Assembly: GCA_965198235.1 (NCBI GenBank) | Contig: OZ240248.1 | Span: 928,001 to 992,000, forward strand | Length of the DNA: 64,000 bases | Direction of reading: 5' to 3' | Source of the DNA: Candidatus Poribacteria bacterium | GTDB taxonomy: Bacteria; Poribacteria; WGA-4E; WGA-3G | Shown: in pieces, positions 4,579 to 64,000 of the stretch | How the letters are laid out: the number at the start of each line of letters is the position of its first letter | Position numbering within the stretch: position 1 is the stretch's first letter | Notes under the pieces: model-generated | The model's database searches: none | Told to the model about the DNA's origin: nothing | Seen by the model: the letters and a program-made list of their open reading frames with translations, nothing else | Translations under genes and position numbers: made by a program

Positions 4579-4637
4579 ATTTTTACTGATGGCCTCCCGG
4601 GCTGCTCTCCACTTCGTTACGAGCAGGTTTCTGATTA
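4579..4637 (-). repeat. Dispersed hairpin element (6-bp stem, GWAAYGWARYGGA loop) ending at a start codon
   Basis: Full copies also at 43556-43646(-), 47561-47617(-), 48781-48866(-), 51083-51140(+) and 61405-61465(+). Longer variant at 4690-4793(+), 19925-20025(-) and 63420-63520(+). Confidence 0.8.
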
Positions 4638-4813
4638 AGTCTCAACTATGTTTAGGAATTTTGACATTTCTTTATATCTTAGAAACATTAAACCAAAACC
4701 TTAGCCCGTAAGCGTAGCGGAGGGCGGATATATGGCAGGGTTTTTCAACCTCTCAGCCGCCCTGACCAAACCGCAAGGAAAAATTAGAAAATAAGCACGA
4801 GCGTCATCGTGAA

Positions 4814-5266
4814 TTATTCATCACGGCGGATCCAACTGACGACATCTTCTGCCTCACCTGTACCACCTTCAACACCATCGCTCCCGAAAGAAATGAGATC
4901 GTACCCGTAACGGTCATGGTTACCGGGGCGAACATAGATATATGGATTCCCCCACGGATCTTCCGTGATTGGGATTTGAATATAGGGCTCTACCCAGTTT
5001 ATAGGTCTTGGTGGTGCTTCAGGCATTTCCCAAAGTGCCTTCAATCCCTGTTCAGTCGAAGGATAATCACCGTTATCTTTGGCGTACCTATCAAGAGCGA
5101 TACCAAGCGTTTCAATATCCTCAGCGGCTTGTGCTTGCAAAGCGCGCCCAGCCTGCCCGAGCAACCGAGGTGCCAAAAGGACAGCCGCGATAATTCCGAG
5201 AACGATGACGACAACTAAGATTTGTATTGATGTTAATCCTGCTTGTTTAGAATCGATTGATTTCAC
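4814..5266 (-). CDS. gspG: Type II secretion major pseudopilin GspG-like protein
   Basis: Prepilin-like N-terminus QAG|LTSIQILVVV; YPSTEQGL, DPWGNPYIY, SFGSDGVEGG. GTG start at 5266 with GGAGG upstream. Confidence 0.82.
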   Translation of the reverse strand: MKSIDSKQAGLTSIQILVVVIVLGIIAAVLLAPRLLGQAGRALQAQAAEDIETLGIALDRYAKDNGDYPSTEQGLKALWEMPEAPPRPINWVEPYIQIPITEDPWGNPYIYVRPGNHDRYGYDLISFGSDGVEGGTGEAEDVVSWIRRDE

Positions 5267-5384
5267 GTATTTTCCTCCGCTCACCTGACATAGCAAAGAT
5301 GAAATAGTTATCAGTGACCAGTAATAAGATGCTCGACGAAGTCAACGGCTTTTATAGCTACTGACGACTGATAACCGCTTTTTA

Positions 5385-9842: not shown

Positions 9843-10397
9843 ATGGAAAAAACATCTGCCTCCATTCCAATTTACACCATAGGCTACGGAAGCCGTTCCA
9901 TTGAGGAATTCATCAAAGTGCTACACCGGCATGAGATCGCTTACCTCATCGATGTCCGCTCCGCTCCCTACTCACGCTATAAGCCGGAATTCTCCAAAGC
10001 ACTACTCGCGAATGAACTCGAACAGCACAGCATCCGCTACGTGTTCATGGGAGACACGCTCGGTGGTAGGCCCGATGATGAAACGTGTTACGTCAACGGG
10101 AAACTTGATTACGAAAAGGTCAAGGAGAGGGAATACTACCAACGCGGTATTGAACGCCTGCATACTGCCTTCTCGCAACAACAATCTGTTGTTTTAATGT
10201 GTAGCGAGGGAAAGCCAGAGGAGTGTCACCGATGCAAACTCATCGGCGCAACCCTCACAACGCAGGACATACCGATCATTCATATCGACGAAAATGAAGA
10301 GCAAGTGACACAGGATAAAGTCGTTGAACGTCTGACAGGCGGGCAATTGTCGATGTTTGGCGAAGAGACGTTTCATTCTCGGAAAAAATATACTTAA
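9843..10397 (+). CDS. DUF488 family protein
   Basis: IYTIGY, LIDVRSAPYS, LGGRP, LMCSEGKPEECHR. Confidence 0.88.
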   Translation: MEKTSASIPIYTIGYGSRSIEEFIKVLHRHEIAYLIDVRSAPYSRYKPEFSKALLANELEQHSIRYVFMGDTLGGRPDDETCYVNGKLDYEKVKEREYYQRGIERLHTAFSQQQSVVLMCSEGKPEECHRCKLIGATLTTQDIPIIHIDENEEQVTQDKVVERLTGGQLSMFGEETFHSRKKYT

Positions 10398-18631: not shown

Positions 18632-18662
18632 CTACGTTTATATGTTTTCAGGTTGGACGATA

Positions 18663-18734
18663 GTTGGGTTTCACTTCGTTCAACCCAACCTACGATTTAC
18701 TGGGGAACCGGTGCGGTTAGGAAACCGCACCTAC
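18663..18734. repeat. Pair of GTAG-type REP hairpins
   Basis: GTTGGGTTTCACTTCGTTCAACCCAACCTAC and GGTGCGGTTAGGAAACCGCACCTAC. Related copies at about 7713-7822, 39000-39230, 42267-42368 and 50988-51016. Confidence 0.7.
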
Positions 18735-18757
18735 TTCGATTAGGACGGGATAAAGAA

Positions 18758-19924: not shown

Positions 19925-20153
19925 ATTTCTAATTTTCCTTGCGGATGAGGCAAATGGGTTGGAGACTTTGAAGTGCCTTTCTTAGAACCGCTTTCCATTA
20001 CGTTCCAAGCTGCGCTTTGGTTTTCAATATTCCGACCCCGGCGCAGCAAAGCCTGAGCATCTCATCTGCTTATTTGCCAAGGGTGTCCGACAAGGAACGC
20101 ACACATTCATCATAAGTTTGGGGAACCGGAGCATCACCAATCTTTTCGTCTAT

Positions 20154-34447: not shown

Positions 34448-34448
34448 A

Positions 34449-43555: not shown

Positions 43556-43807
43556 ATTTTTAACTATGAGCCTCTGGGCACCCTTCCACTTTTTAATTTA
43601 TGGGATCCTGGGCATCGTTCCACTTCGTTTCACGATGGTTTCTGGAGAAGTAAAGAGCCTGCTTCGGATTATTAGCTATTAGCTATCAGCTATCAGTGAA
43701 AAGGTAGGTTTGCAACAAACCACCCTCTCCCTGAAGTACTCCAAGATGGGTAGATTGTTACAAGAAACCCTCTTAACTGACTGCCGATGACTAAAGACTG
43801 ACAGCCA

Positions 43808-47560: not shown

Positions 47561-47724
47561 TTTTCTAACTATGGGACTCCGATCTGCCCTCCACTTCGTT
47601 TCGGGCAGGTGTCTGGTCCAATTCACACAAGGGTGGATCCACTCAAACTCCTCGTACTTTAACAGAAACCACTGTGAAAGGTAGTGGAACAGTGACCAGA
47701 TTCAATTATTAAAAATACTCGTTC

Positions 47725-48780: not shown

Positions 48781-48866
48781 TTTTTAAATGATTCGGCTCC
48801 CGGGCATCGCCTTTTAATTTATTGGCTCCTGGGCGTTGTTCCACTTCGTTTCACAACGGTTTCTGG

Positions 48867-49682
48867 TCAATTAGCTGGGTTCTCAACAAAAGGCTTAGAA
48901 GATCCGAAACGCCCGCCTTCTCTTTCTGAGAGCCCCAGTGCAACCGCTTTCTGTGCCCGCTGAACGTTCTCAAGCCGTGAACCCGATTTTTGAAAAACGC
49001 TACTGGTTCCGCCGACTAAGATATCTGCACCCGCAGATACCATTTTGGGGATATTCTCAAAACTCACGTTGCCATCAACTTCAATAGGTAAATCGACACC
49101 GCGTTCGTTCAAAAAAGCACGACATTCCGCGATTTTTCGGAGGGTCGCCGGTACTAACTTCTGTCCTGCAAACCCCGGATTCACCGTCATAATCAGCACA
49201 AAATCAAGCCGTTCCAGAACATAAGCCAATGCAGAGAGCGGTGTTGCGGGGTTGAGAGCTGCTCCTGCCTTGATTCCATGTGCTCGAATCAGAGATAACG
49301 TTCTATCAAGATGTATTGCTGACTCAACGTGAACGGCTATCTGCTGCACACCAATCTCAGCGACTGCATCGACAAAGAAATCGTTGTTTTCTACCATGAG
49401 GTGAATGTCAAAAGCACAGTCTGTCTTTGAGCGTAATTGTTGAATAAGTGCGAGTCCGATCGGCATATTCGGGACAAAATGCGCGTCCATTAAGTCAAAA
49501 TGTAGCATGTTAACGCCAGCAGCTTCTAATTCCCGAATATCGGCTTCTAAGTTGCATAAATCCGCGCACATCACCGATGGTGCAATGTGGATGTCCGGTT
49601 CTGAAAACGCCGTATTTACAACAGACAAAATAGTACTCCCAAACGTCAAAATTTCTGTGCTTTTCCTAAGGTAGGCTTGCAA
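48867..49682 (-). CDS. Ribulose-phosphate 3-epimerase family (Rpe/AlsE-like)
   Basis: IAPSVMCAD, HFDLMDAHFVPN, DIHLM, ALNPATP, MTVNPGFAGQ, IEVDG. True start may be about 49628. Confidence 0.92.
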   Translation of the reverse strand: MQAYLRKSTEILTFGSTILSVVNTAFSEPDIHIAPSVMCADLCNLEADIRELEAAGVNMLHFDLMDAHFVPNMPIGLALIQQLRSKTDCAFDIHLMVENNDFFVDAVAEIGVQQIAVHVESAIHLDRTLSLIRAHGIKAGAALNPATPLSALAYVLERLDFVLIMTVNPGFAGQKLVPATLRKIAECRAFLNERGVDLPIEVDGNVSFENIPKMVSAGADILVGGTSSVFQKSGSRLENVQRAQKAVALGLSEREGGRFGSSKPFVENPAN

Positions 49683-49746: not shown

Positions 49747-50784
49747 TCAGGAACATTCCAAAACTTCGCGAAGCTGTGCATCCAAATCTGTGGGAGGGTC
49801 AAAAGGGAGGTCAATCGGCTTGTGAGACATAGCACTCGCATAGATGCCCAAAACCGCATTGAACTGGTGCAAGGCAAGTTTTAGATTTGTTTCGACCGGA
49901 CGGGTATCGTCTTCAATCCAGTCGAACATCGCCTGCGTCAGACGTGCTTGTGCGAGGTCGTTCTTTGTGCGCCAAGAATCGGGGGTTTGCACGCCGTTCT
50001 CAGTTAACCCGGTGGTGATGATTTCCCATCCGCTGAATTCTTCAAAGAGGACGTGCCCGTTCTCGCCATAGGCGGCAACGCGACAGTGCTTGTAGATAGC
50101 ATCGTCGTCCATGACGCGTGGAGAGGTAAAACCGGTGTTCCAGAATCCGTAGACCCCGTTTTCAAACAAGACCTGACACGACGTTGTATCAGGAGCAGGA
50201 TAGCCACTATCAAGCGACTCAGCACCGCTCGCAGTGCCGAAGACCCTGACAATAGGCGAATCGTTGTTTAGGGACATCGCCCAATCAATGATATGCGTGC
50301 CTTGGGCGGTGAGGTTCATACCACACGAAAAATCTAAAAGGCGGATCTTTCCCAATTCACCGCTCTCCACTGCCTGTCGGCAATTGGTGAAGTCGGGATG
50401 CCATCGGTACTGTTTGCCAACTCCGAATTTTGTAGAGGTCTGCGCCTCCAACTCGCATAGAAAACGCCAGTCCTCGACACCGCAGGCAATAGGCTTTTCA
50501 ACGAGGCACGCCGGCACACCCAATTCTGATACCATCGGCATAAGCTCACGCCACTGGTCAGGCATTGCGACGAGGTGAACCAAATCAGGCTGCTCTACGC
50601 GGAGCATCTGTTCAGCATCTGCATAGCCGGTGATACCGAAGGTCTCGGCGAATTTTTCACGTCGGGCGACATCTGAACGGTTTGCGCACGCGACTAACTC
50701 GCCACTCGAAATATGTTGATAGGCATTCGCATGACCATAAGCTCTACCACCGCAGCCAATGATCGCACTCCGATATTTTGACAT
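49747..50784 (-). CDS. Gfo/Idh/MocA family oxidoreductase
   Basis: IIGCGGR, VEKPIA, GTHIID; start MSKYRS at 50784. Confidence 0.88.
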   Translation of the reverse strand: MSKYRSAIIGCGGRAYGHANAYQHISSGELVACANRSDVARREKFAETFGITGYADAEQMLRVEQPDLVHLVAMPDQWRELMPMVSELGVPACLVEKPIACGVEDWRFLCELEAQTSTKFGVGKQYRWHPDFTNCRQAVESGELGKIRLLDFSCGMNLTAQGTHIIDWAMSLNNDSPIVRVFGTASGAESLDSGYPAPDTTSCQVLFENGVYGFWNTGFTSPRVMDDDAIYKHCRVAAYGENGHVLFEEFSGWEIITTGLTENGVQTPDSWRTKNDLAQARLTQAMFDWIEDDTRPVETNLKLALHQFNAVLGIYASAMSHKPIDLPFDPPTDLDAQLREVLECS

Positions 50785-50925
50785 TTTTTTAATTATTGGC
50801 TCCTGGGCTGCCTTCCAAATGTAAAGCAAAGACAAATTATGCCATTTAAGGCATAATTTCATTTCAGGCAGGTTTATAGTCCTCTTGGACGGATATTCTA
50901 AAGTTGTGCCCTAAAATAGAAAACA

Positions 50926-51036
50926 GGACTTACGCAGCCTTGAGGCGGGTTCCCTATCTGTATGTGCCGCGTCCACTGATCCCTATGGGTAGGGTGTGGT
51001 TTGAAACCACACCCTACCGGGGAATTGCGTAAGTCC
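50926..51036. mobile_element. MITE with GGACTTACGCA terminal inverted repeats and nested REP hairpin
   Basis: GGACTTACGCA (50926-50936) ... TGCGTAAGTCC (51026-51036); internal GTAGGGTGTGGTTTGAAACCACACCCTAC. Confidence 0.65.
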
Positions 51037-51140
51037 GAAAAAGAGAAAATTTCGCTACAGATATCAGAGGCGGTCGGGATTCACCCGAAACCACCGCGAA
51101 ATGTAACGGAGCGGTGCCCAAAGGGGCCCCATAGTTAAAA

Positions 51141-51980
51141 TTAATGCTCTGATTTTACGCGTGCCCACACCGTTGTCAAACGACCTTCTGGTGACACAGG
51201 CGTAAATCCAAAGAGTTTCCCAAGTCCCTCGCTCATGATGTCATTGACATCGGCTTCACTTAAAGCGGTATTGAAAACAGCAACATCATCCATGAGACCC
51301 CATCCGGGTCGCTGATCCACCATACCACCAATCTGGAGTGACTGTCCCGTCAATCCAAAAACACCACCCGTATTGGATTGTGCATCAACTTTGCCATCTA
51401 TATAGGCTATCATCTTCTTTCCATCATAAGTGAAAGCGATGTGATGCCATTTATCGTCGTTGACGAGCGTTGGACCCGAAACCCATGCCGGTGCGAGTTG
51501 TCCACTGCCGATTTCAACCTTACCGTGACCGCCGCCTCGTCCGGGTCCAAAGATATTCAGCAGACACGTATATTGAAAGTTAATGATGGCATGGTCGTCG
51601 TTACAGCAACCGCCCAAGACGACTTTCTTCTTTTTCTTGAGTTTCACCCACGTCGTCGTGGTATATTTCTCAGCACAACTGTCCAAACTTTTTGAAGTCG
51701 GGACCATAGCGACTTGGAATTCGTCGTCCCCGGAGAGACTCAATGCCCCATCGAATTTTCCATCATCTACCAATTCGGCACCTTTCAGCAATTCAGCATC
51801 ATTGCCGTTTTTGGTAGAATCGGGAGACATATCTTTGTTAGTGACCTCATCAAAGAGCCATACGCCAACGATGCTTTTTGCATCAATTGCCGCATCGCTC
51901 ACAGGTGCAAATATCACTGGGATAGCCATTAAACAAACTATTCCCAGAATAGACAGTTTTCGCAAAACAATTTCCTCCAT
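51141..51980 (-). CDS. Secreted LamG/concanavalin-like protein with C-terminal LTTVW tail
   Basis: Signal peptide, GVWLFDE, GKFDGAL, KWHHIAFTYDG, YIDG, MDDVAVFN.AL; ends PVSPEGRLTTVWARVKSEH. Confidence 0.88.
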   Translation of the reverse strand: MEEIVLRKLSILGIVCLMAIPVIFAPVSDAAIDAKSIVGVWLFDEVTNKDMSPDSTKNGNDAELLKGAELVDDGKFDGALSLSGDDEFQVAMVPTSKSLDSCAEKYTTTTWVKLKKKKKVVLGGCCNDDHAIINFQYTCLLNIFGPGRGGGHGKVEIGSGQLAPAWVSGPTLVNDDKWHHIAFTYDGKKMIAYIDGKVDAQSNTGGVFGLTGQSLQIGGMVDQRPGWGLMDDVAVFNTALSEADVNDIMSEGLGKLFGFTPVSPEGRLTTVWARVKSEH

Positions 51981-52873: not shown

Positions 52874-53353
52874 CGTTTTTAGTAGTTTTCAGTTAACAGT
52901 TTTAACCATCAACTCGCCTCCGTTATAAATGTTAAAGCACGAGTTGATGGTTAAAGTTAAACACATTGAGGCAGGTCTGTTTTCGGTTACCGCCACGCGT
53001 ACATCTCCCGATAACTATTTCCACTAACGACTGAAGAGTTTATACAGCACCTAAGACACTTCTATTAGCAGTGCTAACTGAAATTAACCAGAAACCCTCG
53101 TGAAACGAAATTAGGTTTCCTTAAATGGCATAATTTTGCTTCGCAGTGAGAATGCTTTACATTTGGAACGATGCACGATGGACGATCATTTAAAAAACTT
53201 ATGTAAACAGAAAAACCGAATTTGTCGTTTGCAATCAAGATTCAATCTTAAATTCCGTATTACTGCAAACAGACAGCTTCCATAAGGCTTTAGCAACGCT
53301 GCGATCTTAGCATCCATGGAAACGCAGTAAATACGAAAAAATCAGGAATATAC

Positions 53354-56300: not shown

Positions 56301-59300
56301 CGACCGACGAGAATAGAGCGATTTTTAACGTTGTGCTAAAAGATAAAAACGAAACGGAAGCAATAGGCAACTACATGCGGAACCGAGACGTGCCAGCCTC
56401 GTCAATTCAACCGCTCTCCCTCTCGACCGAAGAACGCCTCATTATGGAACTCGGCTACAATTTTACAGACGTGGTCGCCGAGTGGGGAGGCCTTTCAAAT
56501 GGCCTCTCCGCATCCGGGGTAGACTATTCGGAACGCAGCTTCGTTGAAATCTGGATGCGCGTCCAAGGCGACGACAATGTGACACTACATCTGAACCTTG
56601 GGGTAGTGAACGAAGATGTAGATGCCGATGAACGATTGGATAGTGAAGATCTTCCAGAAACGCTAACAGATACAAATGGAGACCGGAGCATCGATGCATT
56701 GGATTTAGATCTCGAGAATCTCTCACACATCGATCGCTATCGTGGGAACGGTGCCCTCGATACAGGCGAGGACGTAGGATGGGGGCTCAACGGTCCGCTT
56801 GAAAGAACATCTATCGGCGTAGGCAACCAGATTCTGGACAGCGAAGATCTCAACGGTGACGGTGTACTTGACAGTATAGATGCATATTTTGAGGTTGCAA
56901 TACCACTGAATGAAATTCCGAAAGAATGGGTTAAAAGCAAAAATGCAAACGGTTGGATGTTCCTCAGCATTCCACTCTCTAAATTTACGCCAGCAGGTTC
57001 CCGCCTGCCCAGTCTCGTTTTTGTGCAACACTTCCGATTCTGGCTAAGCAAAAACGGACCCGGCAACGTAGAAGGTTTATTGCAATGGGCGGATATTGAA
57101 ATTGTTGGCAACAAATGGAAACAGGGGATTATAACTCGGTCAAGTTCCCAGCCTACCATCGAATCCATAATTGACAACCCAGCACTCGCCTCCACCGGAG
57201 AAACCTTGTCAACCAGTACAATTGTGGAAGACACATTGGAAAAATTCATCGTCGGCACGAGGGATAACTTCAGTTATGATGCATATCAAAGTGCGTATCT
57301 GGATATTGAAGATAACGAGCTCTTCAAAAAATTACATCCATTCACAGCCACTTCACTCGGTTTTCAAACACAACAGCAACGTGAACAGACACTTAGTCTC
57401 GAATATTACCTCTTTCCCGGCTCCTACGGTGTCACCTCGAAACAATTGAAAGGCTTAACACAAAGTGAAGGGCAAGATTTCAGCAAACACGATACACTCC
57501 GATTTTGGCTCTATGGTGACAAAAGCGATACAACCTTCGTTTTACAACTCGCACCAACTGTCCGAACCGGCTACCGTAGTTCCTTCTATAGTTCAGATCC
57601 GTTTGTCAATCAGACCCAACAGGAACAAAACATCAACGTTTTCGAGAATCTAACAGACTACTATGAATATACAGTCCCAATCGACTTTGAGGGTTGGAAG
57701 TTAATTGAGATTGATTTGCAGGACCTGCGCAGAAATAACTATCCGGATGTGAAAGAAACTGATTCCACGCTTCCTTCAGCCGAATCGGTTGTTGCGGAAA
57801 CGAATGGCGGCGAAGTCGCAATTAACACTACTTCCGAAAGCGCAGACGATGCACCAGATGGACAACCCGACGGTTTCACGATTAGAGGTGGGAATAGCAC
57901 GCGACTTTCTATCAAAAATATCGGCGGCATCCTTCTGGGTATACGTAACGACACTGGACGCGAAATCAGCGGAGAAATCTGGGTAAACGAGATTCACCTC
58001 GGCGATCCGCTTGTACGTGCAGGATGGGCACGCCGTGGAAATATGGCGGTGTCCCTCGGCAGAATCGCTAAATTACGCGGCGGCTACGCAAGCCAAGATA
58101 AAGATTTTGAAAGTGGTGCGGGTGAAGTCGGTAGACAACGGCTCTCCTCACGCGGGTATAGCACGACAAACAACGACTTCAATATCGATGCAGATGTCAC
58201 TCTATTCCCGTGGCTGCCGATCCGGTACGGGGTCCGACACCAAAACACGGAAACCGAGAGCCAGCGCGGAAGTTACAGCAGCTTCCAGAGTGGGAAAAGT
58301 GAAATCCGCACTCGAGATATTTCTGTGCAGTTCACTCAAAACCCGTATCCGAATCTCGGTTTCGCTTACAACTACCAAGATTTTTGGAATGAACGCCAAG
58401 GCACGCAAATTAGCCACCTCTATACGGGTAGCTTTCGGTATGAACTCGGTTCAAAACTCGGGGTCAACGCGCAGTACCGGCACGAAGACATACTCGCCAA
58501 ACCCGAAACCGCAACAGAGACATCTTCGACTTCAACATCCTACTATAGTTACGGCTACGGTAGAAATCGAGACGAAAAAACAGATAGCGGCACCATAACA
58601 TTTAATATCAGCCCGACAAATATCTTCAGTCTGAACCCCAGTTACGATGTCCGTCGGACGCTTGAAAGACGGGAAGAGCAAGACTCCAGATCCCCACTTG
58701 CAGGTAATATAACGACAGAACCGGAAACCCCCGAATCCGAAGAAGAGAAAACAGCCGAAGATGTTAAATGGTCAATTGCTCAGCGAGAACATCGGTTGTC
58801 GCTTACCCCACGCTTAAACCGGGATCTGCTCGGCATGCGCCCCACCGTAACAAGCCGGATGAGTTTTCGTGAGAACTGGTTCCGTGAACAGAAAAACGCT
58901 TCACTCAACGGAAACGTCAGCCTCGGCGTGAACCTCCGCATTCAAAAATGGTTCGGATGGTTCCTCAGAGAGAAAACACCTGAAACCGAAAACGATTCAA
59001 ATGAATCTCAAGATGGAACAGCACCGCCTTCAGAAAGTAGTCCCATAGAATCGTTGAAAGGTGGCGAAGGTACAGAAATAACCGAACAATTGCGGGAAAA
59101 TGGTATTGACGAAACACAAATCCAAGAATTGGAAGAGAATTCTTCGACTTGGATCGAACGCGATAAAGGTGAGTTGCCGTCTGCGGGCACGGAAACCGGA
59201 AATAGCGGAACACAAGAGGGTGCAGTGCCAGAGGTCAAGGACGGTATCCTGCATCGAATTCTGAAAAGTTTCACTGTCAGCACCAACGCAAACTTCACCG

Positions 59301-60073
59301 CTACCGAATCGTATCGGCAACTTGCCTCTGGGCTATCAATGTTAGAAATCTATTCGCTTGCGGACGATGCAAAGGAACGGACGAACTCTCGGCGTAGCAA
59401 TCGCTATACAGTACGTAGCTCGGTAGACCCGTGGAATTGGGCATCTTTCGGAACAAACGTCAGCACTTCCGATAGTTTCCGGAAAAGTTCAGGTACAACC
59501 TACATACAGAACACCAATGCCTACGGAGCCGACGTAAAACTGAAAGCGCGAGAAACTTCCAGTTTCCAACTTCGCTATAGTTATACAACACGAAATAACG
59601 GGAGGCTGGATGCTATACTCGGTGACAGCAAAGCACACACGCCTTCACTCAGTTGGATACAGACATGGGGTAAAGAGACTCGGACAGCGTTGGGTGTACG
59701 TACGACACTTCGAGACCAGCTACGGAGCGGTATTCAGAGCAACGCGCTCATCGTCACTCCAAACTTGAGTATTGACTACAGATACCGTACAGAAAATGGC
59801 ATACGGATACCGTTTTTCGGTAGAATCCCCCTGAAACACGATCTCGAGTTAACCAATACTCTCTCTTGGGCTATCCGAAGAGAGCAGTACGGCGCGAACC
59901 TCGAGGAGCGTTCAGAAAGGTATGAGACGACCTTGCGCATCGGTTACAAAGTCAGCACCCATATTACAGCGAATTTCCATCTCGGCCTCAGCTACAACCA
60001 TGATAGGGTTGAAGAGGGTAGAGATTTCCTCTCCATCGCGACTGCCCTCACCGTCCGCGGCGAAATCCAATAA
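53354..60073 (+). CDS. SprA/Sov-like giant outer-membrane protein (type IX translocon-like) with Gly/Tyr/Ser-rich inserts
   Basis: IKIWYEG...IIKTISFGDITLSLP...LFG; DYNIDYETGEI; SETVRLNG..L.RDTDY...YEVGTI.F; GE.AYS..NPN..G.A.IDSMEG; SEDLNGDG.LD; GEIWVNEI; beta-strand-rich C-terminal third. Resemblance recognised by eye. Confidence 0.72.
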   Translation: MQIHFLSKFVDQLTLIKRQNLLLKTGIILIIVLCSTSEVVVSRIAEEETEPKKQTPTEPATPDNRSTVPDSGEPTTPPKNQRYTGFGLSTRNPFDNDSKSKHFIWQDEQEQIEVPDQAEAEDLLIQPYLDSLRRWRNPPYLTDLSKLYNWKPKPKRDEKGIALPMDSNLRITGLQSVTVEANKTHYFGEGDLNRYGGYGYGGGYGGYSSGLDLGLTSSYGYEDFGYSSSGFGGGGYGSGYGSGYSSYGSGYGSSYGGYSGGYGSGGAPRATGFNLRQIQQFGLHGRVGKRTHIAVDYSAGGSGFGSGGYGGGYGGYGGGYGGGYGIGGTKEQKIKIWYEGTPESIIKTISFGDITLSLPNTRFLNINRNLFGLEGVFEWKNTRLTAFGSRSKGIREVRTFRGQSRRAGGGYGYGPRGIQIPDINYVKNRFYHIHTDEDRFLHDAYLPIKSGSEQIFIDDGVVGNNQGGKRTSRGYFNPQFSGQDYNIDYETGEIEFLSPISANYTIVVAYEYLGDGGGTVGNTEKVFVDENDDGRLDEEGEEIGYVVLKEKGLRGTEATHVYSLGNRNINPRDFTLTLLRQGQSDTFQTNTRSVPYIEIFELDQNSDGIVDAQFIDYDRGLLRFPTTNPFQIVDPSHPYYAYRDSLSNTDIYLEGVRTDAQIYTIIADYAYQSETYNVGLFVIPDSETVRLNGQVLTRDTDYMMLYEVGTIRFFRQLDEFDEIVVEFEKTPFGGSSQQAVAGVWLEYTHKPKSKSEREQSLEDRFNRLGGIQTMDSDMLGEGTDAFGQGLSGGLQRRSRGFGGSSRRGRGGFGGGFGGSRFGGGYGSYSSLGGRSRSYSGSYGGAMNYFNPVFQKGFSLSTGYILNTGQKPAEVPDVNSVPNRLQAFNINTSFGREFNVAGILNLLPFINIRNLPLSLDFSGEAAYSHNNPNSIGVALIDSMEGAKESTTVPTLKYNWKPSSLPHVSESEPTTPGDAAYRVIPTDENRAIFNVVLKDKNETEAIGNYMRNRDVPASSIQPLSLSTEERLIMELGYNFTDVVAEWGGLSNGLSASGVDYSERSFVEIWMRVQGDDNVTLHLNLGVVNEDVDADERLDSEDLPETLTDTNGDRSIDALDLDLENLSHIDRYRGNGALDTGEDVGWGLNGPLERTSIGVGNQILDSEDLNGDGVLDSIDAYFEVAIPLNEIPKEWVKSKNANGWMFLSIPLSKFTPAGSRLPSLVFVQHFRFWLSKNGPGNVEGLLQWADIEIVGNKWKQGIITRSSSQPTIESIIDNPALASTGETLSTSTIVEDTLEKFIVGTRDNFSYDAYQSAYLDIEDNELFKKLHPFTATSLGFQTQQQREQTLSLEYYLFPGSYGVTSKQLKGLTQSEGQDFSKHDTLRFWLYGDKSDTTFVLQLAPTVRTGYRSSFYSSDPFVNQTQQEQNINVFENLTDYYEYTVPIDFEGWKLIEIDLQDLRRNNYPDVKETDSTLPSAESVVAETNGGEVAINTTSESADDAPDGQPDGFTIRGGNSTRLSIKNIGGILLGIRNDTGREISGEIWVNEIHLGDPLVRAGWARRGNMAVSLGRIAKLRGGYASQDKDFESGAGEVGRQRLSSRGYSTTNNDFNIDADVTLFPWLPIRYGVRHQNTETESQRGSYSSFQSGKSEIRTRDISVQFTQNPYPNLGFAYNYQDFWNERQGTQISHLYTGSFRYELGSKLGVNAQYRHEDILAKPETATETSSTSTSYYSYGYGRNRDEKTDSGTITFNISPTNIFSLNPSYDVRRTLERREEQDSRSPLAGNITTEPETPESEEEKTAEDVKWSIAQREHRLSLTPRLNRDLLGMRPTVTSRMSFRENWFREQKNASLNGNVSLGVNLRIQKWFGWFLREKTPETENDSNESQDGTAPPSESSPIESLKGGEGTEITEQLRENGIDETQIQELEENSSTWIERDKGELPSAGTETGNSGTQEGAVPEVKDGILHRILKSFTVSTNANFTATESYRQLASGLSMLEIYSLADDAKERTNSRRSNRYTVRSSVDPWNWASFGTNVSTSDSFRKSSGTTYIQNTNAYGADVKLKARETSSFQLRYSYTTRNNGRLDAILGDSKAHTPSLSWIQTWGKETRTALGVRTTLRDQLRSGIQSNALIVTPNLSIDYRYRTENGIRIPFFGRIPLKHDLELTNTLSWAIRREQYGANLEERSERYETTLRIGYKVSTHITANFHLGLSYNHDRVEEGRDFLSIATALTVRGEIQ

Positions 60074-60396
60074 ACAAAAGCCTAAGATTACCCTGAGAAC
60101 CCGCCCATCCAAACAAGTGTAGAAAAAAATTGGAAAGAAAAGCAATTTATGATATAGTGGTTTTAACCCTCAACTCGCTCTGATTAGATTTGTTTAAGGC
60201 ACGAGTTGAGGGTTAAAGTTATCAGTCGTCAGTTAAGAGGTTTTTTGTGACAATTCACGATGCTTTGGAGTACTCCAAGAATGTAAAGCAAAGACAAATT
60301 TTGCCGCGTATGGGCAAAATTTGGGTAGATTGTTACAAACCGCTCTTAACTGATAACCGATAGCCGATAACTGAAAACTATAAAAAAAGGAAAAGC

Positions 60397-63315
60397 ATGA
60401 GAGGCAACAATACAGATATACCTCGCCCAGAATATCCGCGTCCAGATTTTCAACGCGGAACATCAGAAGGCATCGATTGGATCTGTCTGAATGGCACATG
60501 GGAATTCGCTTTTGACCCTGGCGATACCGGCGAACAAAATCAATGGTTTGCCCTGGAGCCAATCGTTGATTCCCCATGGACATTGCAAATACAGGTTCCC
60601 TATCCTTGGGAAAGCCTTGCGGCATGGGGCGGCGAAGAACAAGCGGATAACGCAACCTACTTGAGCAGAAACGCCTATATCACACCTGAAGCGGTCACCT
60701 GCGGCGGTTTAGAACGTGGTGGAAATTATCGGGACGAGCCGAGACACACAATCGGTTGGTATCGCAAAACGGTCTCTATCCCTGAGAATTGGGGTGATAG
60801 ACGAGTTATTTTGAAGTTCGGTGCTGTCGATTGGGAAACGACCATCTGGGTGAATGGTCAAATAATCGGTAAGCATGAAAACGGGTATCTACCGTTTGAA
60901 TTTGACATCACAGACACACTCACACCCGGGCAACTTGCATGCATCGTCGTTCGAGCTTACGACGCACAGGACCACGGCGAGCAACTCGCGGGCAAACAGA
61001 TAGGTTGGTATGAACGAACCAGCGGTATCTGGCAGTCTGTCTACTTAGAACCCAGAAACGAAACCCACATCGCGCAGTGCCACATAACACCTGACATTGA
61101 CAACGCTTCTGCTACATTCGCCGTTAAGGTAGACGGATACACAGAAAATACAGGACTCAACCTACGTTGGAATTGCGACGGACGCAATGGTTCGGTTGAA
61201 GTTTCTGGCAGTGACACACAATTTACAGTTACTATCCCTCCAGAACAACTCCGCTTGTGGGACGTAGACACCCCAAATCTCTACGATGTGACGCTCGAAT
61301 TGCTGATGGAAAATACTCCGGACGCACCCCACACCGGTAGGAGCGATCTCCCGACTGAGGAAAGTTCTTCTAAAATCGCACAAGATCCGAACACTGCGCG
61401 ACCTAACCAGAAACCTGCCCGTAATGTAATGGAGGGCAGCCCAGGGGCCCATAATTTAAAAATTGATAGGATTTTCACTTACTTCGGAATGCGGAAAGTT
61501 TCTATAGCGAAAGCCCCCGGTGGAGATTATCAGTATATCTACCTTAACAACCGTCCTATCTATCTGCTTGGCGCGCTCAATCAGTCGTTTAACCCAGAAG
61601 GCGTGTACACGTTTTTGACAGATGAAGCGATTCGCAGGGACGTCGAACGCGCAAAAGAATTCGGATTCAACTTTCTCCGCCTCCACATCAAGGTAGATGA
61701 GCCGCGGCTCTATTACTGGGCTGACAAGTTGGGTTTGCTCTTTATGTGCGACATCCCGAATTTTGGCGACTATACGGAGAAAGCGAAGGCACGATTTGAG
61801 CAAACACTTCGCGGGAACATTGCGCGTGACTACAATCATCCGTCGATCATCTCATGGTGCAATTTTAACGAAACTTGGGGACTCGGTGGCAGGGAGTACA
61901 AAGAGATGCACGAACGGCAAGAATGGGTGCGCGAGATGTATTACCTTGCCAAATCTCTTGACACCACCCGCCTCATTGAGGACAACTCGCCCTGTTTGTA
62001 CGACCACGTAGAAACAGACATCAACTCGTGGCACTTCTACATCAACGATTATGAACGCGCGAAAGAACATATCGCCAACGTTGTGGAAGAAACATACCCC
62101 AGTTCAGCGTTCAATTACGCTGGTGGTAATGTCCAGAGCGATGCGCCACTGATTAATAGCGAATACGGTGGTATCTCAGCAGGCGCGGGCGATAAGGATG
62201 TCTCATGGTGTTTCAAATACCTTACCAACGAACTCCGCCTCCATCCGAAAATTTGCGGTTACGTCTATACCGAGTTGCAGGATATCGAGTGGGAACACAA
62301 CGGTTTCATGAACTACGACCGGTCGATAAAGGCATTCGGATACGACTACCTCGATATTAATACCTTAGATTTTATCGCTATTGATTATCCGCCTGGGACA
62401 ACAGTTACACCGGGTGAGAAGATAAAGGCTGATATCTACACGAGCCATTTCTCACACAAAACCATCACAGGTGCAACACTGCACTGGCAACTGGATACGA
62501 TGTCAGCGACTGGAGATATCACACGTGGATGCGTTTCAGGAAGCGTTGATATTCCATTTCCACAGTACCAAGTGCAAAACGTGCATCAGCTTGAACTTAC
62601 CATGCCTGATGTTCACCCCGCGCTCGGTACACTCCACGTCTGGGTAACAGATGGCACCGGTTCTGTTGTCGCCCGTAATTTCATCAACTTCGAGCATTTC
62701 ATTGAAACTAATCCAACAGTTGAATCAAGCGATTCAAGGTTAGTTCGCATCAACTACGCCCCTGGAAACGCGTCCAAATCGTCTTGGGCTCTTGTAGGAG
62801 GGGGGGAAACGCCCTATCAAAAACACTCCGATTCCCGATTTTTGAACGAACATCTGTTTTCCGCAGAGGGAAGTGGTTACGTTGAATATGAGATACGCAA
62901 GCCTATAGAGGCTTGCGGGACAATGCCAGAAGGGATCGGTACAACAAATTCCGCAGAGATGGAATTGATTTTTGAAGCATCCAGCGCAAACGGCGGTGCA
63001 CGTCAAACGGAACCTGAAAAACATCCATCTGATGTGACGATCTCTGTCAACGGTGTTGAAATCGAGACGATCCGCATTTCCGACTGTCCGGCGGATGCGC
63101 GCGGTGTGCTCTCTTATATCCACGGGCAGCCTGGCAACTACGGTTACCTTTACAGGGTCAAAGTTGACCCATCTCTCGTTTTGAATGGAAAAGCAGACAC
63201 ATTAACAGTCCGCTACGAGGTCAAATCCGACGCTGCCGAGACAGGCGGACTTTCACTCTATGGCGCGCGTATGGGCAGATACCCGACTGGACCCCATCTG
63301 CTCATTCATCTTTAA
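60397..63315 (+). CDS. Glycoside hydrolase family 2 protein containing in-frame repeat insertions
   Basis: PRPEYPRPDF, LNGTWEF, FGAVDW, GKQ..WY...SGIWQSVYLE, YFGMR, GFNFLRLHIK, NHPSIISW..FNETWG, PLINSEYGG, GYVYTEL.D.EWE.NG. Confidence 0.9.
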   Translation: MRGNNTDIPRPEYPRPDFQRGTSEGIDWICLNGTWEFAFDPGDTGEQNQWFALEPIVDSPWTLQIQVPYPWESLAAWGGEEQADNATYLSRNAYITPEAVTCGGLERGGNYRDEPRHTIGWYRKTVSIPENWGDRRVILKFGAVDWETTIWVNGQIIGKHENGYLPFEFDITDTLTPGQLACIVVRAYDAQDHGEQLAGKQIGWYERTSGIWQSVYLEPRNETHIAQCHITPDIDNASATFAVKVDGYTENTGLNLRWNCDGRNGSVEVSGSDTQFTVTIPPEQLRLWDVDTPNLYDVTLELLMENTPDAPHTGRSDLPTEESSSKIAQDPNTARPNQKPARNVMEGSPGAHNLKIDRIFTYFGMRKVSIAKAPGGDYQYIYLNNRPIYLLGALNQSFNPEGVYTFLTDEAIRRDVERAKEFGFNFLRLHIKVDEPRLYYWADKLGLLFMCDIPNFGDYTEKAKARFEQTLRGNIARDYNHPSIISWCNFNETWGLGGREYKEMHERQEWVREMYYLAKSLDTTRLIEDNSPCLYDHVETDINSWHFYINDYERAKEHIANVVEETYPSSAFNYAGGNVQSDAPLINSEYGGISAGAGDKDVSWCFKYLTNELRLHPKICGYVYTELQDIEWEHNGFMNYDRSIKAFGYDYLDINTLDFIAIDYPPGTTVTPGEKIKADIYTSHFSHKTITGATLHWQLDTMSATGDITRGCVSGSVDIPFPQYQVQNVHQLELTMPDVHPALGTLHVWVTDGTGSVVARNFINFEHFIETNPTVESSDSRLVRINYAPGNASKSSWALVGGGETPYQKHSDSRFLNEHLFSAEGSGYVEYEIRKPIEACGTMPEGIGTTNSAEMELIFEASSANGGARQTEPEKHPSDVTISVNGVEIETIRISDCPADARGVLSYIHGQPGNYGYLYRVKVDPSLVLNGKADTLTVRYEVKSDAAETGGLSLYGARMGRYPTGPHLLIHL

Positions 63316-63520
63316 CAGTTATCGGTTCAGTTCTACACCTAAAGCGGATTCCCGAATTAACCTGAAACCGGTTTCTCGTAATGTAATGGAGTACAGCTCA
63401 GATTCAATACATTAAAATTAGACAAAAGCACGTAGCTTGGAACGTAGTGGAAAGCGGGTCTACGAACAGGCACGTCAAACCCCTAAACCCGCTCAACGAA
63501 CCGCAAGGAATAATTAAAAA

Positions 63521-64000
63521 ATGGCAAGTCCTGAATTTGTATTCACACGTTATTCCAATTTGGAAATTTCTTGGCCCTTCGTACACGAACGGATGGTCAG
63601 TCGATTAGAAGAATTAGGTGTAACACTCGTTCTCAACACAAATAGTCGAGACCCTATTCACGAACAGGTCGACTTAAGCGAAACCATCGGAATATCCCAC
63701 TTCGGTGGAAACCTGACCGAAGCATGTATCGCGGCAGCCCCAAAACTGAAAGTACTCGGAGCGATGACCGACAATTCTGGACACGGTATCCCGTATAAAG
63801 CACTTCAGGCACGTGGCATCCCAGTGATCGAATCGACACGAGCGTGGTCGCAATCTGTAGCAGAATGCGCTTTCGGTCTCGCGCTGTCTTCGCTGCGCCG
63901 GACAGCACAATGGCACCTGCGGATGGCACAAGGCGAAAAACTGTGGGATTGGGAAAACCCGATGTGGGGTTCGCTAAACGCACGTGAAAGCGGTGCCCCC
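63521..64000 (+). CDS. D-2-hydroxyacid dehydrogenase family, N-terminal part (runs off window; missing from ORF track)
   Basis: ATG 63521 open to the end: MASPEFVF...IAAAPKLKVLG...ARGIPV...SVAECAFGLALSSLRR. Confidence 0.75.
   Translation, partial: MASPEFVFTRYSNLEISWPFVHERMVSRLEELGVTLVLNTNSRDPIHEQVDLSETIGISHFGGNLTEACIAAAPKLKVLGAMTDNSGHGIPYKALQARGIPVIESTRAWSQSVAECAFGLALSSLRRTAQWHLRMAQGEKLWDWENPMWGSLNARESGAP

What the first reader, a model, noticed from the sequence alone, without database searches (positions are those of the whole stretch)
4579..63523. Dispersed hairpin element with fixed 13-nt loop and covarying stem that often ends exactly at a start codon
Seen (sense strand), six stem-loops: CTGCTC-GTAACGAAGTGGA-GAGCAG (4602-4626), CATCGT-GAAACGAAGTGGA-ACGATG (43613-43637), CTGCCC-GAAACGAAGTGGA-GGGCAG (47584-47608), CGTTGT-GAAACGAAGTGGA-ACAACG (48834-48858), CACCGC-GAAATGTAACGGA-GCGGTG (51092-51116) and CTGCCC-GTAATGTAATGGA-GGGCAG (61415-61439). 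Each follows a CCAGAAAC-like lead and precedes a CCCAGGRG..CAT..TTAAAAA-like tail. Five different stem sequences all pair perfectly. The tail runs straight into the ATG of the genes at 4578, 43555 (secF), 47560, 48780 and 50784 (tail only). A longer variant with the same loop does so at 19924 and 63521. Six of these seven genes are catabolic or redox enzymes. Inference: either a mobile element that targets or supplies translation starts, or an undescribed cis-regulatory RNA or protein-binding leader. The loop resembles that of the REP at 18663, which hints at an HUH/RAYT-mobilised origin.
Basis: partly seen in the sequence, partly recalled or inferred. Interest (0 to 1): 0.75.

Follow-up and report, generated by a model that had tools for sequence, protein, structure and literature searches.

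The report
Poribacteria hairpin repeat docking on start codons
This is a family of small palindromic repeat elements, found here only in sponge-associated Poribacteria, whose A-rich tail ends exactly at the start codon of the next gene in about half of its copies, so mobile-looking DNA appears to supply the start region of many ordinary genes.

Summary
All six hairpins are at the stated coordinates, and the window holds further copies. A pattern scan found the element essentially only in Candidatus Poribacteria genomes, and no Rfam family matches it.

The unit is a lead (GAATTAACCAGAAAC), a 25-nt hairpin and an A/T-rich tail. The stem covaries. The "fixed loop" is itself structured, with an inner C-G/U-A covarying pair closing a GNA triloop.

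Of 104 full-length copies, 52 end 0-2 nt before the ATG of a long ORF. Another 19 run antisense into the stop codon of a convergent gene. The lead side gives 0 and 3.

Copies often form head-to-head doublets that fill intergenic spacers. One copy sits in frame inside a GH2 gene and is absent from some orthologues, and other orthologous sites are empty.

Retained copies are far better conserved than synonymous sites. Downstream genes include rpoC, dxr, dapB and ruvA, so this is not a catabolic regulon.

Best reading: a REP/REPIN- or MITE-like element co-opted as a gene-start cassette. Whether the tail acts as a translation-initiation region or a leaderless promoter is unresolved. No transposase was found.

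The parts
4579..4641 (-). Short-form copy (lead, hairpin CTGCTC/GAGCAG, tail). The tail ends 1 nt before the ATG of the MR_MLE-family gene 3574-4578.
4690..4791 (+). Long-variant copy (GCCC-loop-GGGC, GGATATATGG..., CCGCAAGGAAAAATTAGAAAA). It lies head-to-head with the 4579-4641 copy and faces the 3' end of the convergent gene 4814-5296.
18650..18690 (-). REP-like hairpin GGTTGGGT-TGAACGAAGTGAA-ACCCAAC with a related loop, lacking the lead and tail.
19925..20020 (-). Long variant: GCTT-GGAACGTAATGGA-AAGC followed by a ~70-nt extension that ends CCGCAAGGAAAATTAGAAAT directly at the ATG of the MR_MLE gene 18758-19924.
43556..43651 (-). Full copy (43590-43651) plus a second, duplicated tail with a 3'-arm remnant (43556-43590). 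It ends 1 nt before the ATG of secF 42383-43555.
47561..47621 (-). Copy ending at the ATG of the Zn-ADH gene 46502-47560. It is the right-hand member of a head-to-head doublet.
47656..47715 (+). Partner copy of the doublet (stem CACTGT/ACAGTG, loop GAAAGGTAGTGGA). It is antisense to the flanking genes, and its tail faces the stop of gene 47725-48780.
48781..48872 (-). Full copy (48812-48872) plus a second tail (48781-48811). It ends at the ATG of the Zn-ADH gene 47725-48780, and its lead overlaps the TAA stop of rpe (48867-49682).
50785..50880 (-). Complete copy with a ~37-nt palindromic insertion inside the loop. The tail ends at the ATG of the GFO/IDH/MocA gene 49747-50784.
51077..51141 (+). 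Copy whose tail runs into the stop codon of the convergent gene 51141-51980 (class B).
53080..53197 (+). Copy with a ~51-nt insertion in the loop that shares the CCTTAAATGGCATAATTT palindrome with the 50785-50880 copy. It is not at a gene start.
61357..61464 (+). Copy with an extended lead, inserted in frame (36 codons) in the GH2 gene 60397-63315 between its Ig-like and TIM-barrel domains.
63354..63417 (+). Degenerate short-form copy with an imperfect stem.
63430..63520 (+). Long variant ending CCGCAAGGAATAATTAAAAA directly at the ATG of the 2-hydroxyacid dehydrogenase gene that starts at 63521.

Best explanation
**What it is.** This is a Poribacteria-specific family of miniature palindromic repeat elements of the REP/REPIN or MITE kind.

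**Anatomy.** The unit is about 64 nt, and up to about 105 nt with an extended lead.
- A conserved lead, GAATTAACCAGAAAC.
- A 25-nt hairpin with a 6-bp covarying stem. Its apparent loop folds further: a 3x3 purine internal loop (GWA/GGA), a 2-bp inner helix (A-U plus a covarying C-G/U-A pair) and a GNA triloop.
- An A/T-rich tail, CCCAGGAGGCC-ATAGT-TAAAAAA.

**Arrangement.** Units occur singly or as head-to-head doublets with the tails pointing outwards. A doublet fills the whole spacer between two co-directional genes.

**Shown.**
- The element spread by insertion, or by replacement of intergenic DNA.
- The tail end sits on gene boundaries. In about half of copies it stops 0-2 nt before the ATG of the next gene, so everything the ribosome sees upstream of that start codon is element sequence.
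- In about a fifth of copies it runs antisense into the stop codon of a convergent gene.
- Copies at gene starts are retained at orthologous loci and are much better conserved than synonymous sites.

**Inferred.**
- In the sense orientation the tail works as a portable start module. It would be an unstructured A-rich ribosome-loading region, with an SD-like GGAGG about 14 nt upstream in roughly half of the copies.
- The lead plus hairpin is a recognition site, on single-stranded DNA or RNA, for a protein. That protein could be the mobilising enzyme, a host factor, or both. This would explain why the lead and hairpin are the most conserved part.
For: **Taxonomic restriction.** 69 of 102 loci returned by the pattern scan are Poribacteria MAGs. 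Locus L034, from an unnamed bacterium, also carries a real copy. The other 32 matches lack a stem.

**Structure.**
- On 89 distinct hairpins, 93.7% of cells pair, against 69.7% in shuffles (0 of 500 shuffles reach the observed value).
- 5 of 6 stem pairs change on both sides.
- The inner pair is C-G 49, U-A 36, U-G 1, other 3, while loop positions 2 and 7 assort freely.

**Polarity.** Among 104 full-length copies the tail side abuts 52 ATGs of long ORFs and 19 stops of convergent ORFs. The lead side gives 0 and 3. Random positions give 3.6% and 2.7%.

**Mobility or turnover.**
- A 36-codon in-frame copy sits in GH2. It is absent from 4 of 9 aligned orthologues, tail-only in one and hairpin-deleted in another.
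- In syntenic locus L073 the ADH1 and secF sites are empty. In L048 and L074 the PhyH site is empty, with only 17 nt between the two genes in L048.
- Short and long variants swap at orthologous genes.

**Doublets.** There are 20 head-to-head pairs, with a modal gap of 26-29 nt, and no tail-to-tail pairs.

**Selection.** In 10 of 16 orthologue pairs the 63-nt element is 0.86-1.00 identical, while third codon positions are 0.53-0.85 identical. Non-orthologous copies are about 0.5-0.6 identical in lead, stem and tail.

**Generic gene set.** Downstream genes include RpoC, Dxr, DapB, RuvA, an ECF sigma factor and others.

**Accessible tail.** The tail and AUG are unpaired in 6 of the 7 predicted sense-strand RNA folds; the seventh has a weak 3-bp tail helix. 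Native SD-led genes in the window also use spacings up to 13 nt.
Against: - No transposase, target-site duplication or transposition intermediate was identified.
- Where filled and empty sites can be aligned, the whole spacer is replaced rather than cleanly interrupted.
- No transcription start data exist, so it is unknown whether the hairpin is transcribed with the downstream gene.
- G-T pairs (13) and A-C mismatches (12) in the stems are equally frequent, so the acting strand is not identified.
- Hairpin energies are modest (-7 to -10 kcal/mol). Only 1 of the 7 sense-strand 66-nt contexts folds better than its shuffles (z -2.2 for window 47558-47623; the other six are within noise).
- About 45% of tails lack GGAG.
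Loci were chosen by a lead-plus-loop pattern, and genes were called from ORFs only.
- Copy density is only about 1 per 83 kb in unselected flanks, against 8 per 64 kb in the window.
Confidence: 0.5

Rival explanations
1. **Leaderless-promoter cassette.** The tail would be a -10 element, and transcription would start at or 1 nt before the ATG. Element-led genes would then be expressed as leaderless mRNAs. Copies followed by a short SD-containing leader would be ordinary promoters. The lead and hairpin would lie at about -63 to -24 and would bind an activator or an alternative sigma factor.
For: - Anchored on the ATG of 43 copies, the tail reads A(-12) T(-11) A(-10) R(-9) T(-8) T(-7) followed by A6. 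This is xATAAT/xATAGT at -13 to -8, with the A at hexamer position 2 and the T at position 6.
- The unrelated long-variant tail has GAAAAT at the same place.
- 25 of 31 element-led ORF starts lack an SD-like motif at -17 to -4.
- Copies not touching an ATG are often followed by GGAG plus ATG.
- Abutment is exact to 0-2 nt.
Against: - No -35-like hexamer or TG extension sits at the right distance in either tail type. Canonical TTGACA-17-TAnnnT promoters do occur elsewhere in the window, and the promoter scan did not call any element.
- Stem and inner-pair covariation cannot be explained by a double-stranded promoter.
- The 19 antisense copies would fire into the 3' ends of convergent genes.
- Any A/T-rich tract contains -10-like hexamers.
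Confidence: 0.2
2. **Translational or stability operator.** The lead and hairpin would form an RNA operator in the 5' UTR, recognised by a dedicated RNA-binding protein or RNase. This factor would control translation or processing of the downstream cistron. Spread by mobility would be ancient or incidental.
For: - 8 of 13 loop positions are invariant across the phylum. The purine-rich internal loop and GNA triloop make sense on the sense strand only.
- Between orthologues, the lead and hairpin are conserved better than the tail.
- The hairpin sits 22-24 nt upstream of the AUG, next to the ribosome footprint.
- It occurs inside operons that are usually co-transcribed (recalled knowledge, not tested here): before rpoC and between secD and secF.
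Against: - About half of the copies are not at gene starts, and 19 of 104 are antisense behind stop codons.
- The downstream gene set has no common function.
- There is no G-U versus A-C asymmetry.
- No candidate binding protein was identified.
Confidence: 0.15
3. **Purely selfish repeat.** This would be a REP/MITE with an insertion preference for A/T-rich sequence at gene ends. Start-codon abutment would only reflect very short native spacers plus removal of harmful insertions, with no host function.
For: - The empty PhyH site in L048 has only 17 nt between the genes, so a doublet inserted there must touch both genes.
- One copy sits in frame inside GH2 and is decaying in some lineages.
- Tails are duplicated, loops are interrupted and variants carry insertions.
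Against: - 10 of 16 orthologue pairs keep the element at 0.86-1.00 identity while synonymous sites are near saturation.
- Polarity is absolute at starts: 52 on the tail side against 0 on the lead side.
- The displaced native upstream region must be functionally replaced for essential genes such as rpoC and dxr.
Confidence: 0.1

Closest known systems
REP sequences and REPINs (REP doublets forming hairpins) mobilised by RAYT transposases
   Same: - Short palindromic units are repeated in extragenic DNA.
- Inverted doublets separated by a spacer are frequent. In 15 of 19 distinct doublets, more than half of the predicted RNA pairs cross the centre.
- The long variant carries GTAG directly 5' of the hairpin. 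That GTAG is a REP hallmark is recalled, not checked.
- Definitions were taken from the abstracts of PMC3116915 and PMC3337134.
   Different: - REPINs are described as randomly distributed in extragenic space (abstract). This element is strongly polar and docks on start and stop codons.
- The conserved part is the loop and flanks, while the stem varies.
- The two arms of a doublet never share a stem (0 of 14) and are no more alike than arms from different doublets.
- No RAYT was found.
Correia / NEMIS elements of Neisseria, and bacterial MITEs in general (recalled, no paper read here)
   Same: - Units of about 100-170 bp with inverted ends lie at gene boundaries.
- They are said to supply promoter or processing signals to neighbouring genes.
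- They show presence/absence between strains.
   Different: - No target-site duplication or parent IS was seen here.
- Each half carries its own conserved hairpin.
- The phase with the ATG is exact to 0-2 nt in half of the copies.
Rickettsia palindromic elements inserted in frame in genes (recalled)
   Same: One copy is inserted in frame in a GH2 gene without breaking it.
   Different: This is the exception here: 1 clear case among 104 full-length copies. The rule is intergenic docking.
Promoter reuse / 'putative mobile promoters' in prokaryotes (PMC3575422, abstract only)
   Same: Highly similar upstream sequences sit in front of unrelated genes.
   Different: Here the shared sequence has a covarying hairpin and reaches the start codon itself. 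Promoter activity has not been shown.
Hairpin operators with a conserved loop and free stem, such as iron-responsive elements, CsrA sites and phage boxB (recalled)
   Same: - A conserved loop is displayed on a covarying stem.
- The hairpin sits in front of many unrelated coding regions.
   Different: - No binding protein is known.
- Many copies are antisense or away from starts.
- The elements show insertion-type polymorphism.

Membership tests
Any Rfam 15 family | Covariance-model match at or near the family threshold | tested here: not met
   - Whole window at gathering threshold and at E<=5: only a tRNA and chance hits.
- 47545-48885, which holds three copies, at E<=10: 0 matches.
- 63330-63540 at E<=10: only sub-threshold CRISPR-DR and RT-7 hits of 9-16 bits.
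REP / REPIN | Short palindromic unit repeated many times in extragenic DNA | tested here: met
   There are 126 profile hits, 104 of them full length, in 1.16 Mb of Poribacteria DNA. The window holds 7 strong CM hits.
REP / REPIN | Inverted doublets with a spacer that fold as one hairpin and are better conserved than singlets | tested here: inconclusive
   - There are 20 head-to-head pairs and no tail-to-tail pairs.
- 15 of 19 distinct pairs fold mostly across the centre.
- Within-pair arm identity (lead 0.59, tail 0.57, stem 0.35) is not above between-pair identity (0.62, 0.58, 0.50).
REP / REPIN | Random distribution within extragenic space (abstract of PMC3116915) | tested here: not met
   The tail side abuts 52 starts and 19 stops among 104 copies. 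The lead side abuts 0 and 3.
REP / REPIN | A RAYT (Y1 HUH transposase) gene in the genome, typically flanked by the repeats | tested here: inconclusive
   - No Y1_Tnp domain was found in the 42 window ORFs scanned.
- A motif screen of 2945 ORF segments in the loci gave one candidate, which is a Dam-type methyltransferase.
- The rest of each genome was not seen.
MITE | Terminal inverted repeats | tested here: met
   The outward-facing tails of doublets are inverted repeats (TTTTTAACTATGG...CCATAGTTAAAAA). Single units have none beyond the hairpin.
MITE | Target-site duplication at filled versus empty sites | tested here: inconclusive
   TTAA occurs near both ends. However, alignments of filled and empty orthologous sites show the whole spacer replaced, so no duplication could be read.
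MITE | Presence/absence polymorphism between related genomes | tested here: met
   This was seen in GH2 and at the ADH1, secF and PhyH sites.
Sigma-70 promoter giving a leaderless mRNA | A -10 hexamer (A at position 2, T at position 6) 6-8 nt upstream of the start codon | tested here: met
   xATART lies at -13 to -8 in 43 ATG-anchored tails, with A(-12) in 35 of 43 and T(-8) in 29 of 43.
Sigma-70 promoter giving a leaderless mRNA | A -35 hexamer at 16-18 nt, or a TG extension | tested here: not met
   The region holds the loop 3' end (RTGGA) and the variable stem. The consensus scan called no element as a promoter.
Sigma-70 promoter giving a leaderless mRNA | Mapped 5' end at the AUG | not testable with these tools
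   No transcript data were available.
Shine-Dalgarno-led translation start | A purine-rich SD 5-10 nt upstream of the AUG | tested here: not met
   - Positions -12 to -1 are A/T only. GGAGG, when present, lies about 14 nt upstream.
- 25 of 31 element-led starts lack an SD-like motif at -17 to -4.
- Two native genes in the window have AGGAGG at 13 nt.

The most novel reading that the evidence does not exclude
A mobile hairpin element has become the standard 'start cassette' of a bacterial phylum. It would install a ready-made start region, either a leaderless promoter or an SD-independent ribosome-loading site, in front of unrelated genes, including core genes such as rpoC, dxr and dapB. Its invariant lead and hairpin would serve as the operator for one trans-acting factor. 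On this reading, a genome-wide post-transcriptional or transcriptional control circuit was built by transposition.
Probability: 0.2. Interest if true: 0.8.

Novelty: new variant of a known kind. Interest (0 to 1): 0.58.

Why it matters
- Dispersed palindromic repeats are usually treated as neutral or as 3'-end stabilisers. Here half of the copies are joined in exact phase to start codons, and they are held by purifying selection across species. That would be a clear natural case of mobile DNA supplying gene-start signals wholesale.
- It offers a handle on how uncultivated Poribacteria start transcription or translation on genes that lack a Shine-Dalgarno sequence.
- The hairpin (tandem purine mismatches plus a GNA triloop on a free stem) is a defined candidate ligand for an unknown protein.
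- In practice, gene callers and start-codon predictors for Poribacteria MAGs could use the element as a start marker. ORFs that read through it, as several did here, are likely to be over-extended.

Tried and rejected
- **Rfam.** Searches at gathering and permissive thresholds gave no family.
- **Literature.** Searches for 'Poribacteria-1', for Poribacteria with 'palindromic', and for Poribacteria with 'RNA motif' gave nothing relevant; the hits for 'palindromic' concern CRISPR.
- **Poribacteria-1 motif.** I recall a motif of this name from the Weinberg 2017 set. The main text does not mention Poribacteria, and the supplement could not be read. The comparison therefore rests on the negative Rfam search alone.
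- **ECF-type and sigma-54-type promoters.** I checked these by eye against the lead, loop and stem. The spacings do not fit. No tool was used.
- **Translational coupling through a long doublet hairpin.** Many doublets fold across the centre. But the arms of a pair are no more alike than arms of different pairs, and they never share a stem, so this is not supported.
- **Strand assignment from wobble pairs.** G-T 13 versus A-C 12 is uninformative.
- **Thermodynamic significance.** Of the 7 sense-strand 66-nt contexts, only 47558-47623 is clearly more stable than its shuffles (z -2.2); the other six are within noise, z -0.9 to +0.6. Its antisense control also scores z -2.8.
- **HUH-motif screen for a transposase.** The only candidate is a D12 methyltransferase.
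- **Catabolic regulon.** Rejected on the wider gene set.
- **Not checked.** Genome-wide counts were therefore not obtained.

Full report

Yes. Reading the window at the stated places shows all six hairpins. Each has a perfect 6-bp stem, a 13-nt loop of the form G[AT]AA[CT]G[AT]A[AG][CT]GGA, a CCAGAAAC-like lead and a CCCAGGRG...ATART...TTAAAAA tail.

The tail reaches the ATG at 4578, 43555, 47560, 48780 and 50784. Pfam confirms these ATGs as the starts of an MR_MLE-family protein, SecF, two Zn-dependent alcohol dehydrogenases and a GFO/IDH/MocA oxidoreductase.

Three details of the finding need correcting.
- The copy at 50784 is not tail-only. It has its own lead, stem arms CTGCCT/AGGCAG and both loop ends, with about 37 nt inserted in the loop.
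- A second copy with a related loop insertion lies at 53080-53197.
- At 43555 and 48780 the ATG is reached through a second tail that follows a remnant of a 3' stem arm.

Two of the six copies are not at gene starts. The copy at 51092 runs into the stop codon of the convergent gene 51141-51980. The copy at 61415 lies inside the GH2 ORF.

A covariance model built later finds seven strong copies in the window (49.6-59.3 bits) plus weak matches to the long and interrupted forms.

**2. Where else does it occur?**

No Rfam 15 family matches, either at gathering thresholds or at E<=10 on short stretches.

One scan of the species-representative genome collection used a pattern of lead plus loop only.
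- 69 loci are Candidatus Poribacteria MAGs.
- One is an unnamed bacterium (L034) carrying a complete copy.
- 32 are from other taxa.

In Poribacteria DNA, 60 of 77 pattern matches have 6 of 6 stem pairs and are followed by the tail. None of the 32 matches in other taxa has a stem. Within what was sampled, the element is specific to Poribacteria.

**3. Anatomy**

A position table over 82 distinct copies shows the following.
- The lead is longer than reported, GAATTAACCAGAAAC. Weaker conservation extends a further ~30 nt upstream, of the types CCCAG.G.CGGTTGG and CCAGTCGCG.
- 8 of 13 loop positions are invariant.
- Loop positions 5 and 9 change together (C with G, T with A), while positions 2 and 7 vary independently.

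I then built an alignment of 89 distinct hairpins, chosen without asking for a good stem, and counted pairs.
- The structure pairs in 93.7% of cells, against 69.7% in shuffles (0 of 500 reach it) and 23-61% when the partner is slid.
- Five of six stem pairs and the inner pair (C-G 49, U-A 36, U-G 1, other 3) change on both sides.

The '13-nt loop' is therefore a 3x3 purine internal loop (GWA opposite GGA), a 2-bp helix and a GNA triloop. This purine pattern makes structural sense on the sense strand only. However, G-T (13) and A-C (12) departures in the helices are equally common, so they do not identify the acting strand.

The hairpins are thermodynamically ordinary. The stem-loop contributes about -7 to -10 kcal/mol. 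Only 1 of the 7 sense-strand 66-nt contexts (47558-47623, z -2.2) folds better than its shuffles. The tail and AUG stay unpaired in 6 of the 7 sense-strand folds; the seventh has a weak 3-bp helix in the tail.

**4. Position relative to genes**

- *Strict set.* Among 83 strict copies in 1.16 Mb of Poribacteria DNA plus the window, 43 have the ATG of an ORF of at least 100 aa 19-27 nt after the stem. The distribution peaks at 22 (11 copies), 23 (19) and 24 (8). In the antisense direction the count is 0 of 83, and at random positions 2.3%.
- *Profile set.* A profile search that does not require a perfect stem gives 104 full-length copies.
  - On the tail side, 52 abut such an ATG and 19 abut the stop codon of a convergent long ORF. 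The stop is often the TAA formed by the reverse complement of the tail's TTA.
  - The other 33 do neither. Several of these are followed by a short leader with GGAG and then an ATG.
  - On the lead side the counts are 0 and 3. Random positions give 3.6% and 2.7%.
- *Doublets.* Copies also form head-to-head pairs: 20 pairs, with a modal gap between units of 26-29 nt. None are tail-to-tail. A doublet lies between two co-directional genes, with one tail on the upstream stop and the other on the downstream start. The window example is 47561-47715.
- *Upstream spacing.* Many single start-proximal copies lie 138-148 nt from the upstream gene, which is the length of a doublet. This suggests, but does not show, decayed partners.

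**5. Is it mobile?**

*The GH2 copy.* The GH2 protein of the window carries 36 extra residues (…EESSSKIAQDPNTARPNQKPARNVMEGSPGAHNLKI…). These are the in-frame translation of an extended lead, hairpin and tail at 61357-61464. Among nine aligned orthologues of 83-91% identity:
- three have the insertion (P0001, P0003, P0004);
- one has lost the 10 codons that encode the loop and 3' arm (P0006);
- one keeps only the tail-encoded HNLKI (P0009);
- four have none of it (P0007, P0013, P0036, P0086).

*Empty orthologous sites.*
- Locus L073 is syntenic with window 42-51 kb. Its ADH2 gene has a copy with a different, fully compensated stem (CGCCGC against CGTTGT) and a different loop. Its ADH1 and secF sites have no copy and carry GATAAC-type short repeats instead.
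- The PhyH gene has a copy in L026 and L038. In L048 it is separated from the upstream gene by only 17 nt.

*Remodelling.*
- Orthologous genes can carry the short form in one genome and the long variant in another. Examples are L045/L071/L081 against L004, and L074 against L026/L048.
- Two genomes with 96% identical IlvE-like proteins differ by a ~21-nt insertion in the 3' stem arm (L079 against L080).
- Where filled and empty sites can be aligned, the whole spacer differs, so no target duplication could be read.

No Y1/HUH transposase was found in the window or in a crude screen of the loci. That screen could not have found a single-copy gene elsewhere in the genome.

**6. Is it under selection?**

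In 10 of 16 orthologue pairs the 63 nt before the ATG are 0.86-1.00 identical. Third codon positions of the first 80 codons are 0.53-0.85 identical, and DNA further upstream is about 0.45-0.70 identical (0.98 in one pair, L051/L072). Some loci are used twice among these pairs.

The other six pairs show remodelled copies, at 0.54-0.74 identity. Arms from unrelated loci are about 0.6 identical in lead and tail and 0.5 in the stem, so family resemblance alone does not explain 0.9-1.0. Differences between orthologues fall mainly in the tail, and the lead and hairpin are often identical.

**7. What are the downstream genes?**

In the window, six of seven are indeed redox or sugar-acid enzymes. I scanned 28 distinct element-led proteins from other genomes.
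- Core or unrelated functions: RpoC, Dxr, DapB, RuvA, a 4Fe-4S protein, a class IV aminotransferase, an ECF sigma factor, UPF0182, a GT2 glycosyltransferase, a nucleotidyl transferase and a VWA protein.
- Redox or catabolic families: four MR_MLE proteins, two PhyH, one ADH, one Ldh_2, one lactonase, two xylose-isomerase-like TIM barrels and three cytochromes c.
- Three had no Pfam match.

This is a generic set, not a regulon.

**8. How it most likely works**

*Shown.* The structure, the polarity, the exact junction with start codons, the turnover and the conservation are all shown.

*It follows directly.* For half of the copies, every base the ribosome or polymerase meets immediately upstream of the start codon belongs to the element. 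For genes such as rpoC or dxr, the element must therefore carry working start signals.

*Inferred.* What those signals are remains an inference. Anchored on the ATG, the tail reads (C/A)ATA(A/G)TTAAAAAA, with GGAGG about 14 nt upstream in roughly half of the copies and no G between -12 and -1. The long variant ends CCGCAAGGAAAATTAAAAAA. Two readings fit.
- (a) An unstructured A-rich ribosome-loading region with a distal SD. Native genes in the window tolerate AGGAGG at 13 nt. The hairpin must be single-stranded to explain its covariation, which is natural if it is transcribed. The element also sits inside operons that are normally co-transcribed (recalled knowledge).
- (b) A -10 element placed so that transcription starts at the ATG, giving a leaderless mRNA. 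The A at hexamer position 2 and the T at position 6 are present in both tail types. However, there is no -35 or TG extension, although canonical promoters exist nearby.

I favour (a) over (b), but only transcript 5'-end data can decide.

The antisense copies behind stop codons place the hairpin before GUUUCUGGUUAAUU, a weak terminator-like context. This is an inference only.

The lead and hairpin are the most conserved part. They are best explained as a protein-recognition site on single-stranded nucleic acid, either for the mobilising enzyme or for a host factor. No candidate is in hand.

**9. Comparison with known systems**

The nearest kinds are REP/REPIN elements and MITEs.
- The element shares the palindromic unit, the inverted doublets and the presence/absence polymorphism.
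- It differs in several ways. It has a variable stem and a conserved loop. Its doublet arms are heterotypic: 0 of 14 pairs share a stem, and 12 of 14 combine a CTGC-type stem with a CA/CG-type stem. Above all, its placement is polar and exact to the phase of gene boundaries, whereas REPINs are described as randomly placed in extragenic space (abstract).
- 'Promoter reuse' (abstract), Correia elements, Rickettsia palindromic elements and loop-specific operators are partial analogies. The last three are recalled, not checked here.

I found no paper describing this element. The supplement of the 2017 survey of candidate structured RNAs could not be read.

**10. Limits**

- The collection scan was truncated.
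- Loci were selected by lead and loop, though not by tail or context.
- Genes are ORF calls.
- Copy density is about 1 per 83 kb in 913 kb of unselected flank, against 8 per 64 kb in the window. Per-genome numbers are therefore uncertain, probably tens to a few hundred.

**Verdict**

This is a real, structured, Poribacteria-specific repeat family. It is a new variant of the REP/MITE kind, whose unusual feature is that it forms the start region of many genes.

Noticed in passing
window 50823-50859 (-) and 53108-53158 (+): Two copies of the element have their loops interrupted at the same point (after GAAA[CT]G). The inserted sequence shares the palindrome (A)AATTATGCCTTAAATGGCATAATTT. This looks like a second, smaller palindromic element nested in the first.
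   Followed up: partly
window 43672-43697 and about 60345-60380; L073 upstream of its ADH1 and secF genes: Short GATAAC/GATAGC-type tandem repeats fill intergenic spacers. In L073 they occupy the orthologous sites where the window has the hairpin element, and they again end in an A-rich stretch at the start codon.
   Followed up: partly
window 18700-18735 (-), about 770-800 (+), about 50987-51019 (+): Other REP-like palindromes of the GTAGG-stem-loop-stem type occur, for example GTAGGTGCGGTTTCCTAACCGCACC and GGGTAGGGTGTGGTTTGAAACCACACCCTACC. In other genomes a GTAGCCTGC...GCAGGC hairpin replaces the GNA-loop hairpin in front of the long-variant tail.
   Followed up: partly
window 61305-61356, about 62790-62850 and about 62895-62930, inside ORF 60397-63315: The GH2 protein has further lineage-specific in-frame insertions relative to its orthologues. 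The underlying DNA is partly palindromic (GTAGGAG...), which suggests other repeat families also land in frame in this gene.
   Followed up: partly
L004, L025, L048, L050, L080, L086 (about 20-25 nt after the loop): A recurrent variant replaces the distal half of the 3' stem arm by GTTTTTG(C/A)TTGGG(T/C)GTTTCT.... This contains the complement of the lead and stem, and would allow an alternative longer hairpin preceded by a U-run.
   Followed up: partly
window 47720-47736 and 53139-53153: The motif GCTTCGCAGTGAGAA occurs next to one element copy and, in the opposite orientation, inside the loop insertion of another.
   Followed up: no
window 34949-37903 (+): This ORF encodes a 984-aa protein with an N-terminal ECF-type sigma factor (regions 2 and 4) fused to BNR/sortilin-type beta-propeller repeats.
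   Followed up: no
window 53354-60073 (+): This ORF encodes a 2239-aa protein with a weak SprA_N match. A loop-interrupted element copy lies ~160 nt upstream of it.
   Followed up: no
window 46502-47626 (-) and several loci (L008, L031, L067): The longest ORF reads through the element in frame from an upstream GTG/TTG. Naive ORF calling therefore over-extends these genes by about 20 codons.
   Followed up: partly
L013 (-) near 10088-10200 and L072 (-) near 17685: Long-variant tails are also found tandemly duplicated (…CCGCAAGGAAAGTTAAAAAT ACCGCAAGGAATAATTAAAT ATG). This parallels the duplicated short tails at window 43556-43590 and 48781-48811.
   Followed up: no
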